Position numbers and translations under genes: made by a program. The notes under the pieces are model-generated. The model did not search any database. It saw only the letters and a list, made by a program, of their open reading frames with translations, and was not told where the DNA came from. A DNA stretch of 64,000 nt from an uncultured Hymenobacter sp. (GTDB lineage Bacteria > Bacteroidota > Bacteroidia > Cytophagales > Hymenobacteraceae): assembly GCF_964243305.1 (NCBI RefSeq), contig NZ_CAXTEF010000008.1, positions 7,269 to 71,268 on the forward strand, given 5' to 3'. Below, one piece after another: positions 7,299 to 63,010 of the stretch. Within the stretch, counting starts at the first letter, position 1. Each line of letters begins with the position of its first letter.

Positions 7299-7458
7299 GA
7301 GCTGTCGCGCAAAAAGGCGGTCATGCTGAGCCTAAGCGAAGCATCTCTACCGCAGCACTAATTCAATTTTTGAAAAAGCTGATTACTACCCCACGCGAGA
7401 TGCTTCGCTTAGGCTCAGCATGACCGCCTTTTTGCGCGACCTTTTTGCGCGACAGCTC
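7299..7458. repeat. Long palindromic element (GTCATGCTGAG...CTCAGCATGAC family), copy 1
   Basis: Perfect 44-bp arms at 7304-7347 and 7397-7440. A 13-bp tandem duplication CTTTTTGCGCGAC follows at 7441-7453. Confidence 0.93.
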
Positions 7459-7497
7459 ACCGTAATTTAGGGTGTTATATAGCACCAAATCTATTAT

Positions 7498-9012
7498 ATG
7501 ACCTCGCTCCGCTGGTACCTGCTCGGCCTGCTGGCCTTATTCGGCGCCTTTGTGGCGCTGGAATACTACCGGCCCCGGCCGCTGGACTGGCGCCCCACCT
7601 ACCTGAGCAAGGAGAAGATTCCCTACGGCACCTTCGTGCTTTATGACCAACTGCCGCGCCTGCTCGGCACCGACTCGGTGCAAATCGTGCGCGTGGCGGC
7701 CTTCAACCAGCTCACCGGCATTGCCGCCGACCCGGAGGAGTTTGAGGACGTGGAGGAGCTGGTTGAGCCCGCTACCGACACGGCGCAGGCCGCCGACAGC
7801 GCCAGCCGGCGGACGGGATCCCCGCCGGCCCCCGCAGCGGCCGACAGCGCCGCCGACATAGTGCAACCCGAAACTGACGCAGCGCCCGCAACTGATTCAG
7901 CAGTTGAAACCGGCGAGAAAGCAACCAGCGGCGAGCTAGCCACTGAGCAAAGCAAGGAAGCCGACGCCCCTACCGACACCACGCGCCCGGCAGCGCGGGA
8001 TGAAATTCCGTTGCGCCCGGCCCGCGCCAACTACCTGTTCATCGCCGAGGACATCCGCCTGGCGCCCTCCGACACGCGGGCACTGCTGCGCTACGCCGCC
8101 CAGGGCCACGACGTGTTCATCGGCGCCGAGGACTTCGGTGGCACCCGCCCCGGCTCGCTGGCCGACTCGCTCGGCTTCGAGAGCCGCGCCCTGGACTTGG
8201 GCGTGCCCCGGCTGAAAGCGGGCGCTGCCCCTACCCCCCCCGATTCGGTGAGCCTGCGCTTCACCAACGCCGGGCTGCGCGGCCCAACCTACCGCCTGCC
8301 GGGCGAGGGCGGCGCGTATCGGCTGAGCGTGGCGGCCGGCCGCCGCGGCGCCACGCTGGCCGCCGACGCGCAGGGCCGGGCCGTCTTTATTCGATTAGAT
8401 TACGGAAAGGGCCATTTCTACCTGTGCTCGGTGCCGCTGGCCTTCACCAACTACTTCGTGCTGCGGCCCCAAACCACGGGCCTCGCCACCGGGATGCTCT
8501 CCTACCTGCCGCCGCGCCCGGCCTGGTGGGACGAATATGAGAAAACGGGGCCCGTCGGCGAGCAGTCCTTGCTGCGGGTGCTGCTGGCCCACGACGCCCT
8601 GCGCATGGCCTTCTATCTGAGTTTGCTCGGCGGGCTGCTGTTTGTGCTGATTGAGGCCCGGCGCCGGCAGCGCATCATTCCCACGCTCAAGCCCTTGCCC
8701 AACACTACGCTGCTGTTTACGCGCACTGTGGCCGGCCTCTACCAGCAGGGCCGCAGCCACGCCCTGATTGCCGAGAAAAAAGTCAGTCTGTTTCGGGACT
8801 ACCTGCGCACCCATTTCCAGGAGCCTACCCCCGACTTCGGCGACGAAGCTTTTCGTGAGCGGCTGGCCCACAAAGCCGGCCTGCCCCGCGCCCGCGTCGA
8901 TGAGCTGCTGCGCCTCGTCAACTTTGCCCGCACCGCCCCCCAGGTCACTGACCGCGAGCTGCTCCGGCTCAGCCGCGCGCTGAATGACTTTCGGCGCGAG
9001 GCCAAGCGGTAA
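7498..9012 (+). CDS. DUF4350 domain protein
   Basis: N-terminal TM, W.PTY...KIPYGT motif, C-terminal TM followed by RRRQRIIP..PN.TL.F.RTVAGLY. Contains an acidic low-complexity insert. Confidence 0.82.
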   Translation: MTSLRWYLLGLLALFGAFVALEYYRPRPLDWRPTYLSKEKIPYGTFVLYDQLPRLLGTDSVQIVRVAAFNQLTGIAADPEEFEDVEELVEPATDTAQAADSASRRTGSPPAPAAADSAADIVQPETDAAPATDSAVETGEKATSGELATEQSKEADAPTDTTRPAARDEIPLRPARANYLFIAEDIRLAPSDTRALLRYAAQGHDVFIGAEDFGGTRPGSLADSLGFESRALDLGVPRLKAGAAPTPPDSVSLRFTNAGLRGPTYRLPGEGGAYRLSVAAGRRGATLAADAQGRAVFIRLDYGKGHFYLCSVPLAFTNYFVLRPQTTGLATGMLSYLPPRPAWWDEYEKTGPVGEQSLLRVLLAHDALRMAFYLSLLGGLLFVLIEARRRQRIIPTLKPLPNTTLLFTRTVAGLYQQGRSHALIAEKKVSLFRDYLRTHFQEPTPDFGDEAFRERLAHKAGLPRARVDELLRLVNFARTAPQVTDRELLRLSRALNDFRREAKR

Positions 9013-9235
9013 TCTGCTGAATTATACCCATTTTGCAACTGGTTTACGGCGTGATTCCCAATTATTGCACTGAGGCAAGAAGCAGGTTTTTGCTTGAATT
9101 GCACAATTTTAATAAAGTGCCTTTACGGTCATGCTGCGGGCGCTTATGCTCACTTTTAGCTGACTTTATTCGGGCTTTAAGCCTTTCCCGCTCTTTGCTT
9201 TTCACCGCTCCGGCCTGTCTCGTCTGCTTCTCTTC

Positions 9236-10375
9236 ATGACTCCCGATAACCTGCCCGATTTTCCTACCCCCCTCGGCCAATCCAACTCGACCGTGGTGCC
9301 TTCCGCCACCGCTGACATGCTGACGTCTGTCCCGATTTCGGCAGCAGTGCCAGCTGCTGAGGAAATCCCTACCCCCCCTGCCGCGCCCGAAGCCCCGGCC
9401 GCTGCCGCCGGCTTCGGCCCGCGCACTGACTTTGCCCGCCTCACGGCGCAGGTAACGGCGGTGCGCGCGGAAATCGGCAAAATTATTATCGGCCAAACCG
9501 ACTTGCTGGAGCTGCTGCTCACGGCTATTCTGGCCGACGGGCACGTGCTGCTGGAAGGCGTGCCGGGCGTCGCCAAGACGCTCACCGCCAAGCTGCTGGC
9601 CCGCACGCTGGCCGTGCCTTTCAGCCGCATTCAGTTCACGCCCGACCTGATGCCGGCCGACGTGCTCGGCACGTCCGTGTTTCGGCAGAACTCCGGCGAG
9701 TTCGAGTTTCGGCCGGGCCCGGTGTTCGCCTCTGTGGTCCTGATTGACGAAATCAACCGGGCCCCGGCCAAGACCCAATCGGCCTTGTTCGAGGTGATGG
9801 AAGAGCACCAGGTAACCCAGGACGGTCGTACCTACCCGATGGCCGAGCCGTTTCTGGTGCTCGCCACCCAGAACCCCATCGAGCAGGAAGGCACCTACCG
9901 CCTGCCCGAAGCGCAGCTCGACCGCTTTCTCTTCAAGCTGCAAGTCGGCTACCCCACCCTGGCCGAGGAAGTCCAGATTTTGCAAGGCCATCACGCCGGC
10001 CACGGCAGCAACGACCTGAGCGCCGTGCAGGCCGTGCTCACCGCCGACGACCTGCGCGCCCTGCGCCAGCAAGTTCGCCAGCAACGCGTCGAGCCCAAGC
10101 TGCTCGACTACATCGCCCAGCTCGTCGGCCAGACCCGCGCCCATAAGTCCTTGTATTTGGGCGCCTCGCCCCGCGCCTCGCTGGCCCTGCTCAACGGCGC
10201 CAAAGCCCTGGCCGCCCTGCGCGGGCGCGACTTTGTGACGCCCGAAGACGTGCAGTTTCTGGCGCCGAGCGTCTTGCGGCACCGCATCATGCTCACGCCG
10301 GAGCGGGAGATGGAAGGTGGCACGCCGGAGGACGTGGTGAAGGGAATTATCGGGCAGATTGAGGTACCCAGGTAG
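9236..10375 (+). CDS. moxR: MoxR-family AAA+ ATPase
   Basis: Walker A LEGVPGVAKT, RIQFTPDLMPAD, Walker B LIDEINRA, ATQNPIEQEGTYRLPEAQLDRF and GASPRA. Confidence 0.96.
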   Translation: MTPDNLPDFPTPLGQSNSTVVPSATADMLTSVPISAAVPAAEEIPTPPAAPEAPAAAAGFGPRTDFARLTAQVTAVRAEIGKIIIGQTDLLELLLTAILADGHVLLEGVPGVAKTLTAKLLARTLAVPFSRIQFTPDLMPADVLGTSVFRQNSGEFEFRPGPVFASVVLIDEINRAPAKTQSALFEVMEEHQVTQDGRTYPMAEPFLVLATQNPIEQEGTYRLPEAQLDRFLFKLQVGYPTLAEEVQILQGHHAGHGSNDLSAVQAVLTADDLRALRQQVRQQRVEPKLLDYIAQLVGQTRAHKSLYLGASPRASLALLNGAKALAALRGRDFVTPEDVQFLAPSVLRHRIMLTPEREMEGGTPEDVVKGIIGQIEVPR

Positions 10376-61786: not shown

Positions 61787-61800
61787 ACCACTGATTGCCT

Positions 61801-62826
61801 ATGCGCCGCTGGCTTCTGCCACTCCTTTTCCTGCTGAGTGCCGGCACCTACGGCACCTGGCGCCTGCTCTACCGGCCGGCCCCTACCCCCTCGCCCGACG
61901 GCGATGCCTACCTCTACATCCGCACCGGGGCGCCGTTTCGGGCGGTGCTGGATTCGCTGAATGGGCCGGCGTTGCTGCGCGACTCAGTTGGGTTTCGCTG
62001 GCTGGCCGAGTGGCGCGGCTATCCGGGGCGCATCCGCGCCGGGCGCTACCGCCTGAGCCCGGAGCTGGGCAACCTGGCGTTGCTGCGCCGGCTGGAAAAT
62101 GGCGAACAAGACACCATCGAGCTGGCAGTAAAGCCGTTTCATTACCTGCCCGCTCTGCCTCGCCGAGTGGCGCCGCATTTGGAAATCGACTCCGTGCAGC
62201 TGCAAAAGCTGCTGGCCGACAACGCCGGCCTGCGGGCGCGCTACGGCCTCGATACGGCCACGGTGCGCACGCTCTTTATTCCGGGCACCTATGACCTGGT
62301 GTGGAATACGAGCCCGCGGGCCCTGCTCGACACGTTTGCGGCGCGGCACCGCCGGTTCTGGACGCCGCAGCGGCGGGCGCGGGCCGACTCGCTGAAAATG
62401 AGCCCGGTGCAGGTTAGTATTCTAGCCAGCATCGTGCAGCGCGAAACGGCGCAGCCCACCGACAAGCCTCTGATTGCCGCCGTTTACTTGAACCGCCTGC
62501 GGCGGGGCCAGCCCCTGCAGGCCGACCCGACCTTGCTCTGGCCCCAGCACGCGCTGGGCACCCGTCGCCGGGTGCTCAATCTGGATAAGAAAGTCGATTC
62601 GCCCTACAACACTTACCGCCACAAGGGCCTGCCGCCGGGCCCCATCACCACGCCCCTGCCTGGCTCGCTCGATGCGGTGCTGCAGCCCGCCCGCAACCAG
62701 AACCTGTTTTTCTGCGCCCGCCCCGACGGCAGCGGGTTTTCCGACTTCGCCGAAACCTACGCCCAGCACCGCCGCAACGCCCGCCGCTACCAGCACCGCC
62801 TCGACAGCCTGGGGGTGAGGCGGTAG
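61801..62826 (+). CDS. mltG: Endolytic transglycosylase MltG
   Basis: N-terminal TM, ASIVQRET, VYLNRL, LQADPT, SPYNTY...GLPPGPI and FAETY..H. Confidence 0.94.
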   Translation: MRRWLLPLLFLLSAGTYGTWRLLYRPAPTPSPDGDAYLYIRTGAPFRAVLDSLNGPALLRDSVGFRWLAEWRGYPGRIRAGRYRLSPELGNLALLRRLENGEQDTIELAVKPFHYLPALPRRVAPHLEIDSVQLQKLLADNAGLRARYGLDTATVRTLFIPGTYDLVWNTSPRALLDTFAARHRRFWTPQRRARADSLKMSPVQVSILASIVQRETAQPTDKPLIAAVYLNRLRRGQPLQADPTLLWPQHALGTRRRVLNLDKKVDSPYNTYRHKGLPPGPITTPLPGSLDAVLQPARNQNLFFCARPDGSGFSDFAETYAQHRRNARRYQHRLDSLGVRR

Positions 62827-62849
62827 CTTCTGGCTTTGCCGGACGAGCG

Positions 62850-63010
62850 GGGGGTAGGGAATCGAGAATTAAAAGAAGGTCAGGCTGAGCGCAGCGAAGC
62901 ATCTTGCCAGGAAAAGTAATCTAATCGTTGTTAATTATTGATTAGCCAGCGGGCAAGATGCTTCGCTGCACTCAGCCTGACCTTCTTTTAATTCTCGATT
63001 CCCTACCCCC
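62850..63010. repeat. Long palindromic element, copy 5, capped by GGGGGTAGGG/CCCTACCCCC
   Basis: 59-bp arms at 62850-62908 and 62952-63010 with one mismatch. Confidence 0.93.

What the first reader, a model, noticed from the sequence alone, without database searches (positions are those of the whole stretch)
7299..63010. Family of long palindromic elements whose arms differ between copies yet match within each copy
Seen: five intergenic elements (7299, 10404, 26894, 51176, 62850) share a core of the form TCA(T/G)(G/A/T)CTGA..GAAG(C/G)A(T/C)C / GATGCTTC..TCAG(C/T)(A/C)TGA around a ~45-55 nt spacer. The variable core differs per copy (CCTAAGC, CGAAG, CCCCGC, CGCAGC), and so do the outer extensions (0 to ~30 bp). 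Arms nevertheless pair at 44/44, 26/26, 40/41 and 58/59. Inference: each copy is symmetrised after or during insertion (hairpin-templated synthesis, intra-strand conversion, or HUH-type copying), or the RNA stem is under strong selection. No transposase is in the window, so these would be non-autonomous.
Basis: partly seen in the sequence, partly recalled or inferred. Interest (0 to 1): 0.72.

Follow-up and report, generated by a model that had tools for sequence, protein, structure and literature searches.

The report
Hairpin-pair repeats with a GIY-YIG partner
The five long palindromes are copies of an abundant family of paired DNA hairpins, probably small mobile elements, whose likely partner is a tiny GIY-YIG nuclease gene elsewhere in this (probably Hymenobacter) genome; this kind of repeat-plus-nuclease system has been described recently, so the find is a new family of a known kind rather than a new mechanism.

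Summary
The five elements are real. Four fold into very strong hairpins. The fifth (26894) has two different arms.

Each arm is itself a conserved 24-nt mini-hairpin: an NGTC tag, a 5-bp stem, tandem G.A and a short loop. An element is a head-to-head pair of such arms. The genome holds about 230-285 pairs.

The arm variants are a few recurring sequence types, not per-copy inventions. 43% of pairs have identical arms (3% expected by chance) and 57% are mixed.

The genome's only small GIY-YIG gene (contig C66) is flanked by two such pairs. So are 12 of 14 homologues examined in sister species. The two Y1 (RAYT-like) genes carry other repeats.

This matches CGTC-tagged REP dimers (Di Nocera 2013) and the SRM/Ssn hairpin-nuclease system (Chenal 2025), although the arm does not fit the published SRM motif. 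The 24-nt core recurs across many phyla.

Copy-specific outer arms are real: 38 of 231 pairs have at least 15 nt, and 20 of these arms are unique in the genome. They also surround ordinary terminators and mixed-arm pairs. They therefore reflect a general palindrome-making process or insertion into hairpin tips, not a property of this family.

RNA-level selection is not supported.

The parts
7299..7458 (.). Element 1: class-A head-to-head homodimer. Arm cores are at 7321-7345 (+) and 7399-7423 (-), type GAGCCTAAGCGA. Copy-specific outer arms are GAGCTGTCGCGCAAAAAGGCGG / CCGCCTTTTTGCGCGAC..AGCTC. There is a 13-nt tandem duplication at 7428-7440 = 7441-7453.
   Evidence: I2 44/44; I9; -95 / -104 kcal/mol, z -16. 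The orthologous intergenic DNA in G016/G003 is about 25-30 nt and has no element.
10404..10506 (.). Element 2: class-B head-to-head homodimer. Arm cores are at 10405-10426 (+) and 10484-10505 (-), type GACGAAGGA, with spacer ctatcacg..tcgttc..
   Evidence: I4; z -14.7 / -13.6. This arm type occurs 24 times in the genome.
26894..26995 (.). Element 3: class-B heterodimer. The left arm is at 26895-26918 (TCATTCTGAGCGCAGCGAAGGACC). The right arm is at 26973-26994 (TCATGCTGACGAAGGAAGCATC on the - strand). The arms do not pair.
   Evidence: (z -0.95 / -0.67)
51176..51281 (.). Element 4: short-spacer homodimer. Arm cores are at 51185-51208 (+) and 51249-51272 (-), type GAGCCCCGCGA, with the rare TCATAC variant in both arms. 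The outer arms are GAAGGAACA / TGTTCCTTC.
   Evidence: I3 40/41; z -14.7. G003 has a 29-nt empty intergenic site.
62850..63010 (.). Element 5: class-A dimer. Arm cores are at 62880-62903 (+) and 62957-62980 (-), with the rare TCAGGC variant in both arms. Unique 30-nt outer arms (62850-62879 / 62981-63010) begin with GGGGGTAGGGAAT.
   Evidence: I1 58/59; z -18; outer arm occurs only here; similarity to the closest paralogues stops about 9 nt outside the cores

Best explanation
The elements are head-to-head dimers of a REP-like DNA hairpin of the CGTC/NGTC-tagged kind. Each arm (nGTC-AT-GCT-GA-GC-loop-GC-GA-AGC-AT-C) folds on its own. Two inverted arms plus a conserved 40-60-nt spacer can also fold into one long hairpin, as in REPINs. 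The family is genus-wide and highly variable in copy number, and the copies do not sit at orthologous sites. It therefore behaves as non-autonomous mobile DNA. Its most likely enzyme partner is the single-domain, roughly 100-aa GIY-YIG nuclease encoded on contig C66, which is itself flanked by two dimers. By analogy with SsnA/NTS, I infer that this nuclease binds the arm hairpin in single-stranded DNA and cuts just upstream of the GTCAT tag. Cutting on the top strand at the left arm and on the bottom strand at the right arm would then delimit the dimer as the unit that is copied. Arms match within many copies because the whole dimer is the propagated unit and exists in a few sequence types; mixed dimers arise by exchange between copies. 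The copy-specific outer arms are not part of the unit. They arise from a process that acts at any stable hairpin in this genus. That process is either template-switch (fold-back) extension or perfection of palindromes during replication, or insertion of dimers into the tips of palindromes made that way. Shown here: the anatomy, the copy numbers, the linkage to the GIY-YIG gene, the turnover between species and the generality of unique palindromes. Inferred: the nuclease activity, mobilisation by it, and the template-switch origin of the outer arms.
For: Arm hairpin: covariation at positions 5/21 (GC 253, CG 24 here; CG 80, TA 46, GC 9 in other phyla) and at 10/16 (GC 245, AT 20, GT 12), with invariant tandem G.A at 8-9/17-18.
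Dimers: 231-284 head-to-head pairs, mostly 50-58 nt apart; no tail-to-tail pairs.
Sequence types recur 5-44 times each. Arms are identical in 100/231 pairs versus 7.8 expected from shuffled partners (max 17 in 2000 shuffles).
Unit boundary: paralogues align only from about 9 nt before the left core to about 8 nt after the right core.
Partner gene: PF01541 at 61 bits, 102 aa, flanked by dimers on both sides. 12/14 sister-species homologues have true arms within 400 nt, often on both sides. Of 120 foreign loci fetched for holding the 24-nt core, 4 also encode a homologue, each 29-194 nt from the core.
Mobility-like behaviour: all 37 same-genus genomes hold 39-750 arms, the 24 genomes from other genera of the order hold 0-12, and the reversed-pattern control gives 0-1. 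Element sites differ between the window and the syntenic regions of G016/G003. 94% of pairs are intergenic. No target duplication was found.
Outer arms: 38/231 are >=15 nt versus 0/231 in the control. 20 are unique. The same feature appears at 176 singleton palindromes and at orthologous terminators in three species.
Literature: CGTC REPs form HH homo- and heterodimers, have conserved spacers and lack a known transposase (PMC3733652). Ssn GIY-YIG nucleases cut ssDNA next to such hairpins, and their genes are flanked by them (PMC11893778). Template switching homogenises and expands inverted repeats (abstracts of PMC8604942, PMC13100816, PMC7202029).
Against: Mobilisation by any Ssn-type nuclease has never been demonstrated; Chenal et al. 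only raise it as a hypothesis. The arm does not match the published SRM search motif (and a manual check). Assignment of the C66 protein to cd10448 could not be tested. Five same-genus genomes with 69-172 arms showed no homologue at E<=1e-5; two of these assemblies are only 84-86% complete. No same-species strain was available, so no insertion, excision or palindrome-extension event was seen directly. Seven rare core variants (plus TCAGGC in element 5) are present in both arms of one copy, so some arm-to-arm correction does occur.
Confidence: 0.62

Rival explanations
1. Per-copy symmetrisation: each copy is made symmetric by hairpin-templated synthesis or arm-to-arm conversion. This, rather than inheritance of whole dimers, would be why arms match within copies.
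For: Unique, perfectly palindromic outer arms of 15-50 nt exist. Seven rare core variants, and TCAGGC in element 5, are shared by both arms of a single copy, where about 0.5 would be expected by chance. Unique palindromes are fully palindromic through their centre more often than expected: spacer 0:2:4 = 14:7:15.
Against: Core variants are recurring sequence types. 57% of pairs are heterodimers. Rare variants are one-armed 53 times versus 7 two-armed. Long perfect outer arms surround heterotypic cores at a similar rate to homotypic ones (17/131 vs 21/100), which a centre-outward copy would not leave. The phenomenon is not specific to the family.
Confidence: 0.2
2. The elements are functional RNA hairpins (bidirectional terminators or mRNA stabilisers), kept palindromic by selection on the transcript.
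For: Some class-A copies have an A-run before and a T-run after the stem (34 of 149). Class-A orientation is mildly biased toward the transcription direction in tandem regions (59 vs 32). REPs in general lie downstream of genes (PMC3733652).
Against: No Rfam family matches. G:T versus A:C mismatches show no bias toward the sense strand (136 vs 150). There is no enrichment in convergent regions (14% vs 17-20% background). Most copies lack T-runs. Sites are not conserved between species. 30-50-nt perfect unique arms cannot be built by pointwise compensatory substitution.
Confidence: 0.12
3. The elements are REPINs mobilised by a RAYT (Y1 HUH transposase), or classical MITEs derived from a DDE insertion sequence.
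For: The inverted REP-doublet architecture is the same as in REPINs. The genome encodes two Y1-family proteins.
Against: Both Y1 genes are flanked by other repeats (GCCCCAGCGGGGCG and GTAGCGTGGACTCTGCGAGTCCGCGCG), and no arm of this family lies within 3 kb of them. The arms carry an NGTC tag, not GTAG. There is no target-site duplication at any symmetric offset (at most 5/231).
Confidence: 0.05

Closest known systems
CGTC-tagged REPs (families CGTC-1 to -4; include Neisseria dRS3 and Rickettsia RPE-4/-6), Di Nocera, De Gregorio & Rocco 2013, PMC3733652
   Same: A short high-copy stem-loop with an unpaired (C/T)GTC tag at one end. The stem starts with A-T and T-A pairs. The repeats are mostly head-to-head dimers 20-100 bp apart with conserved spacers. 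Homodimers and heterodimers coexist. Copies are mainly intergenic, and some families sit inside longer palindromes. No Y1 transposase is linked.
   Different: The stem here is interrupted by an invariant tandem G.A (CTGA..GAAG). The loop is 3-5 nt or longer. The tag is NGTC (C in only about 47% of arms). The tail is not CCA. The host is a Bacteroidota genus. The outer palindromes here are often single-copy sequence, not a repeated 'target' consensus.
NTS/SRM hairpin repeats with Ssn (SsnA) GIY-YIG single-strand nucleases, Chenal et al. 2025, PMC11893778
   Same: GTCAT-hairpin-ATC architecture (NTS is CGTCATTCCCGCGMAVGCGGGAATCYRG). Hundreds of mostly intergenic copies. A roughly 100-aa single-domain GIY-YIG gene flanked by the repeats on both sides. 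Spread across phyla.
   Different: The arm does not fit the published degenerate SRM motif. The repeats here are organised as long dimers with a conserved spacer. Nuclease activity, the cut site and any role in transformation are untested here. Membership of the protein in cd10448 was not verified.
REPIN/RAYT systems (Bertels & Rainey 2011; Nunvar 2010; as cited in PMC3733652)
   Same: Two inverted copies of a small palindrome form a long hairpin unit. There are hundreds of non-autonomous copies and one or a few enzyme genes flanked by the repeat. There is no target duplication.
   Different: The tag is not GTAG. The linked gene is a GIY-YIG nuclease, not a Y1 HUH transposase. The genome's own RAYT-like genes serve other repeat families.
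Quasi-palindrome template-switch mutation (E. coli and yeast work; PMC7202029, PMC8604942, PMC13100816, PMC5941160)
   Same: A replication-based process that homogenises the arms of inverted repeats and can expand them. It would produce perfect, copy-specific palindromic flanks at any hairpin.
   Different: It is known as a point or cluster mutational process. Extension by 15-50 nt at hundreds of intergenic hairpins in one genus has not been described, as far as my searches show, and is only inferred here.

Membership tests
CGTC-tagged REP superfamily (PMC3733652) | Short (20-40 bp) stem-loop repeated in high copy number, mostly extragenic | tested here: met
   24-nt arm; 337 exact-pattern arms and about 615 GAAGCATC octamers; 94% of pairs are intergenic.
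CGTC-tagged REP superfamily (PMC3733652) | Unpaired CGTC (or TGTC/CCTC) tetranucleotide at one end | tested here: met
   The base before TCAT is G in 95% of arms. The base before that is C in 47%; most of the rest read GGTC or TGTC. This is a degenerate NGTC tag.
CGTC-tagged REP superfamily (PMC3733652) | Stem of 8-9 bp starting with complementary A-T residues; loop of 4-5 nt | tested here: inconclusive
   A-T and T-A pairs are at stem positions 1-2 (232/286 and 276/286). The stem has 9 positions, but two of them are invariant G.A/A.G. The loop is 3-5 nt or longer.
CGTC-tagged REP superfamily (PMC3733652) | Predominantly head-to-head dimers with 20-100 bp spacers; homo- and heterodimers | tested here: met
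   244 head-to-head pairs and 0 tail-to-tail. Spacers are mostly 50-58 nt. 43% are homodimers.
SRM/NTS-Ssn system (PMC11893778) | Repeat fits the degenerate SRM motif HGTCWYN(0-2)YYVSBRHN(0-5)WNVSBRGN(0-2)RNCYNB | tested here: not met
   Manual threading of CGTCATGCTGAGCGCAGCGAAGCATCTCG and of the TCATCC variant fails at the S position, because of CTGA (motif taken).
SRM/NTS-Ssn system (PMC11893778) | Small single-domain GIY-YIG gene flanked by the repeats, often on both sides | tested here: met
   C66:614-919, 102 aa, PF01541 at 61 bits with no other domain. Dimers lie at C66:435-570 and 920-1065. 12/14 genus homologues have arms within 400 nt.
SRM/NTS-Ssn system (PMC11893778) | [quoted passage not shown] | not testable with these tools
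   No CDD library is on hand. NCBIfam gives no specific family. The nearest solved structure is the UPF0213 protein 1ZG2, at only E = 4.6e-5.
SRM/NTS-Ssn system (PMC11893778) | Strand-specific cleavage of single-stranded DNA upstream of the hairpin; no activity on dsDNA or RNA | not testable with these tools
   Biochemical assay needed.
REPIN/RAYT (REPtron) | Repeat flanks a Y1 HUH (RAYT) gene and carries a GTAG tag | tested here: not met
   The two PF01797 genes (C14, C55) are flanked by other REPs. No arm of this family lies within 3 kb.
MITE derived from a DDE insertion sequence | Target-site duplication flanking terminal inverted repeats | tested here: not met
   No direct repeat of 3-6 nt at symmetric offsets 0-15 above background (at most 5/231). 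Asymmetric offsets were not tested.
Curated structured RNA (Rfam 15) | Match to a covariance model at gathering score | tested here: not met
   0 matches in the 64-kb window.

The most novel reading that the evidence does not exclude
In this genus, any stable intergenic hairpin (REP dimers, solo arms, ordinary terminators) is repeatedly extended and perfected by fold-back or template-switch copying of one flank onto the other. This would give hundreds of copy-specific, perfectly symmetric palindromes of 20-57 nt. Nicking of single-stranded hairpin DNA by the Ssn-type GIY-YIG nuclease may be what starts these events at the repeat family. On this reading, a nuclease-repeat system and a replication-based palindrome-growth process would together shape the intergenic DNA.
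Probability: 0.3. Interest if true: 0.65.

Novelty: new member of a known kind. Interest (0 to 1): 0.45.

Why it matters
The finding adds a distinct, very widespread arm type to the CGTC-REP / SRM-Ssn world. Its 24-nt core is shared by Chloroflexota, Acidobacteriota, Verrucomicrobiota, Planctomycetota, Bacillota, Patescibacteria and Bacteroidota, and the published SRM motif misses it. In one genus it shows the features expected of mobile DNA: a 20-fold range in copy number, sites that are not orthologous between species, and an enzyme gene framed by the repeats. Whether Ssn nucleases mobilise their hairpins is an open question raised by the authors who discovered them, and a culturable Hymenobacter with about 280 dimers and a single ssn-like gene is a convenient system in which to test it. 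Separately, the many single-copy perfect palindromes could be a natural record of template-switch palindrome growth.

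Tried and rejected
RAYT/Y1 linkage: rejected, because both Y1 genes have their own REPs.
Rfam match: none.
Hammerhead or other ribozyme reading of CTGA..GAAG: rejected by inspection, because the CUGANGA core is absent.
Classical MITE: no target duplication.
RNA-level selection: no G:U strand asymmetry and only a mild orientation bias.
Exact empty-site analysis: the orthologous intergenic DNA of sister species (G008, G018, G019, G016, G003) lacks the elements but is too diverged to place insertion points or to say whether a palindrome pre-existed.
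Literature search by the arm sequence itself: only unrelated primer hits.
The idea that the class-A spacer module is shared with other REP families was mostly an artefact of my strict arm pattern. Most 'outside' hits are dimers of this family with longer arm loops.
My gene calls are a crude ORF/GC3 heuristic, so the context percentages are approximate.

Full report
OBSERVATION. The repeat finder gives arm pairings of 44/44, 40/41 and 58/59 for elements 1, 4 and 5. For element 2 it gives a 38-nt arm at 89%, whose outer 26 nt are perfect. As single strands these four fold at -70 to -104 kcal/mol, with z = -13 to -18 against dinucleotide shuffles. Element 3 (26894) is different. Its left arm is TCATTCTGAGCGCAGCGAAGGACC, and its right arm is the reverse complement of TCATGCTGACGAAGGAAGCATC. 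It folds no better than shuffles. No Rfam family matches anywhere in the window.

ANATOMY. The window is C8:7269-71268 of a 4.61-Mb, 62% G+C draft genome. The genus is most likely Hymenobacter. Loci of H. glaciei and H. cyanobacteriorum share about 80% identity with it over 1-1.4 kb, and those species carry the same dimers.

Each arm is itself a small hairpin: nGTC | A-T-G-C-T | G-A | G-C | loop | G-C | G-A | A-G-C-A-T | C. Within-arm covariation is clear:
- Positions 5/21 are GC 253 and CG 24 in this genome, and CG 80, TA 46 and GC 9 in arms from other phyla.
- Positions 10/16 are GC 245, AT 20 and GT 12.
- The tandem G.A/A.G is essentially invariant.

An element is two such arms head to head, around a spacer of mostly 50-58 nt. 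I found 244 head-to-head and no tail-to-tail pairs with a strict pattern, and 284 with a looser one. About 56 further arms are solo.

By the spacer there are two main classes:
- Class A has spacer tcgc..ggggaaGTAATC..aacaaCGATTGgATTAC..cccc..gcga. It is usually preceded by aaaaGAACG or GGCGG and followed by the complement.
- Class B has spacer ttatcacg..gaacga..tcgttc..gtgataa, with CTG/CAG flanks.

Aligning element 5 with its closest paralogues, and with the two copies next to the GIY-YIG gene, shows where similarity between copies ends. It starts about 9 nt before the left core and ends about 8 nt after the right core. Everything further out is copy-specific.

DO THE ARMS MATCH WITHIN COPIES? 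Partly.
- The 'variable cores' are a small set of recurring sequence types. GAGCTTGCGA occurs 44 times, GACGAAGGA 24, GAGCGCAGCGA 22, GAGCCCCGCGA 22 and GAGCCTAAGCGA 5.
- Arms are identical in 100 of 231 pairs. Shuffled partners give 7.8 on average, and at most 17 in 2000 shuffles. Arms are thus strongly correlated, yet 57% of pairs are heterodimers, often with entirely different loops.
- Rare core variants (at most 6 of 462 arms) are in one arm only 53 times and in both arms 7 times. TCAGGC in element 5 is a further two-armed case.
- Some arm-to-arm correction or compensatory change therefore occurs, but it is the minority pattern. Inheritance of whole dimers belonging to a few types, plus exchange between copies, explains most of the data.

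OUTER ARMS. Palindromy continues beyond the cores for at least 15 nt in 38 of 231 pairs, and for at least 30 nt in 6. With shuffled partners no pair reaches 15 nt. Twenty of the 38 long outer arms occur nowhere else in the genome. The others contain the hyper-abundant GGGGGTAGGG motif or low-complexity repeats.

Three results limit its meaning:
- Long perfect outer arms are about as frequent around heterotypic cores (17/131) as around identical cores (21/100). Examples include a 20-25-nt perfect flank enclosing loops as different as AGA and TTGC. A centre-outward copy of one arm onto the other would not leave that pattern.
- The phenomenon is general. The genome has 821 non-overlapping inverted repeats with arms of at least 20 nt, and only 139 contain these arms. 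There are at least ten other palindromic families and 176 singleton palindromes, with arms up to 57 nt. Of the 101 singletons with loops of at most 12 nt, 62 are perfect and 43 lie between convergent genes. Forty-four look like bidirectional terminators whose palindromy runs a median 9 nt beyond the A/T runs. Twenty-two are palindromic through their centre; spacers of 0, 2 and 4 nt occur 14, 7 and 15 times, whereas random tetraloops would give about 0.06: 0.19: 0.75.
- At one orthologous convergent terminator (window 49504-49542), the window, G016 and G003 each carry a different 22-26-nt palindrome; the G016 arms are perfect.

Some process in this genus therefore makes long perfect palindromes from unique sequence at any hairpin.

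PARTNER GENE. The genome has two Y1 (PF01797) genes. One scores as IS200-like and the other near the RAYT model. Each is flanked by its own, different REP, and no arm of this family lies within 3 kb. Of the three GIY-YIG hits, two lie in 549-aa and 647-aa open frames, too long to be single-domain genes, and the third is a 102-aa single-domain protein at C66:614-919. It lies in a 149-aa open frame between two class-A dimers in the same orientation (C66:435-570 and 920-1065), inserted between two large genes.

Homologues at 61-76% identity occur in 32 of 37 same-genus genomes, in 1-4 copies and at different places. In 12 of the 14 loci examined, true arms lie within 400 nt, often on both sides. 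In one locus the gene lies between the two arms of a dimer. With roughly one arm per 10 kb, I estimate about 8% would be expected by chance.

Four of those 120 stretches also encode a homologue of the C66 protein, 29-194 nt from the core.

DISTRIBUTION. Every same-genus genome has 39-750 arms. The 24 genomes searched from other genera of the order have 0-12. The reversed-pattern control gives 0-1. The 80-kb syntenic regions of G016 and G003 hold about as many dimers as the window does. Only the intergenic space downstream of one gene holds a dimer in both the window (element 5) and G016, and those two copies are dissimilar. Sites 1 and 4 are short, element-free intergenic stretches in the relatives. 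No target duplication was detected. 94% of pairs are intergenic, with mild depletion between divergent genes and no enrichment between convergent ones. Class-A orientation is weakly biased toward the direction of transcription (59:32). G:T versus A:C mismatches show no bias toward the sense strand (136:150).

COMPARISON WITH WHAT IS KNOWN. Di Nocera et al. 2013 (PMC3733652) defined CGTC-tagged REPs. These have stems beginning with A-T pairs and form mostly head-to-head dimers. They occur as homo- and heterodimers with conserved spacers, sometimes sit inside longer palindromes, and have 'no dedicated transposase'. Chenal et al. 2025 (PMC11893778) showed three things. The Neisseria member (NTS, CGTCATTCCCGCGMAVGCGGGAATCYRG) is bound and cut, as single-stranded DNA only and upstream of the hairpin, by SsnA, a 94-aa single-domain GIY-YIG protein. 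Homologous genes across phyla are flanked by such hairpins (SRM). And the NTS-ssnA-NTS layout resembles an insertion sequence, although mobility was left as a hypothesis.

The present family has the same GTCAT-hairpin-ATC plan, the same dimer organisation and the same kind of flanked gene. It differs in the tandem G.A inside the stem, in failing the published SRM search motif, in its long conserved spacers and in its host phylum. I therefore file it as a new family within this known kind. Membership of the protein in cd10448 is untested.

Earlier notes of this scan had reported GIY-YIG genes framed by hairpin repeats in other phyla, and they pointed me to these two papers. I checked the linkage independently here.

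MECHANISM, WITH ITS STATUS. Shown: the hairpin arm, the dimer unit and its boundaries, the recurring sequence types, the linkage to the GIY-YIG gene, turnover across the genus, the absence of target duplication, and the generality of unique palindromes. Inferred by analogy with SsnA: the nuclease binds the arm in single-stranded DNA and cuts 5' of GTCAT. In a head-to-head dimer this places one cut on each strand, outside the two arms. That delimits the dimer, which is then copied through a single-stranded or hairpin intermediate. Inferred for the outer arms: template-switch (fold-back) synthesis at stable hairpins, a known process that homogenises and expands inverted repeats (abstracts of PMC8604942, PMC13100816 and PMC7202029), and/or insertion of dimers into the tips of palindromes made in that way. 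I could not separate these two possibilities.

LIMITS. No same-species strain or read data could be consulted. Gene contexts rest on a crude ORF heuristic. Arm detection used patterns that miss long-loop variants.

Noticed in passing
window 62850-62862, 62998-63010, 53868-53936; genome-wide: GGGGGTAGGG(AAT) is by far the commonest 10-mer of the genome: 2692 copies against 879 for the next unrelated word. The octamer GGGGTAGG occurs 4594 times, roughly three times denser in intergenic DNA. It often sits as an inverted pair at the distal ends of long palindromes. Its function is unknown. At 53877 there is a run of 15 G.
   Followed up: partly
G000 C14:63355-63891 and C55:12443-13138 (outside the window): There are two Y1/IS200-RAYT-like genes, each flanked by its own REP family (GCCCCAGCGGGGCG; GTAGCGTGGACTCTGCGAGTCCGCGCG). 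At least ten other palindromic repeat families are present in the genome.
   Followed up: partly
genome-wide; window 49504-49542: There are 176 single-copy palindromes with arms of 20-57 nt. Many are perfect, many are terminator-like with palindromy running beyond the A/T runs, and fully palindromic centres are in excess. The orthologous terminator sites in two sister species carry unrelated 25-26-nt palindromes (perfect in G016).
   Followed up: partly
window 11886-11993: A 27-nt perfect inverted repeat of a low-complexity CAGTG-type family lies at the 5' end of the long ORF 11879-14029, so the true start codon of that gene may lie downstream.
   Followed up: no
window 43631-43700: An A/T-rich, C-poor inverted repeat lies between two short genes. 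Its outer arm segments are conserved in G016 and G003, while the inner repeats (TGAGTT units) are reshuffled.
   Followed up: partly
window 7428-7453: The right outer arm of element 1 carries a 13-nt tandem duplication (CTTTTTGCGCGAC x2). This gives two alternative registers of pairing with the left arm.
   Followed up: no
L157 (sister species G047), L149 (G005): In one sister species the GIY-YIG gene lies between the two arms of a single dimer. In another it is flanked by arrays of three to four arms on each side.
   Followed up: no
G000 C25:45299-45381: A solo arm of the family sits at the tip of a 29-nt unique perfect palindrome. Copy-specific flanks are therefore not restricted to dimers.
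   Followed up: no
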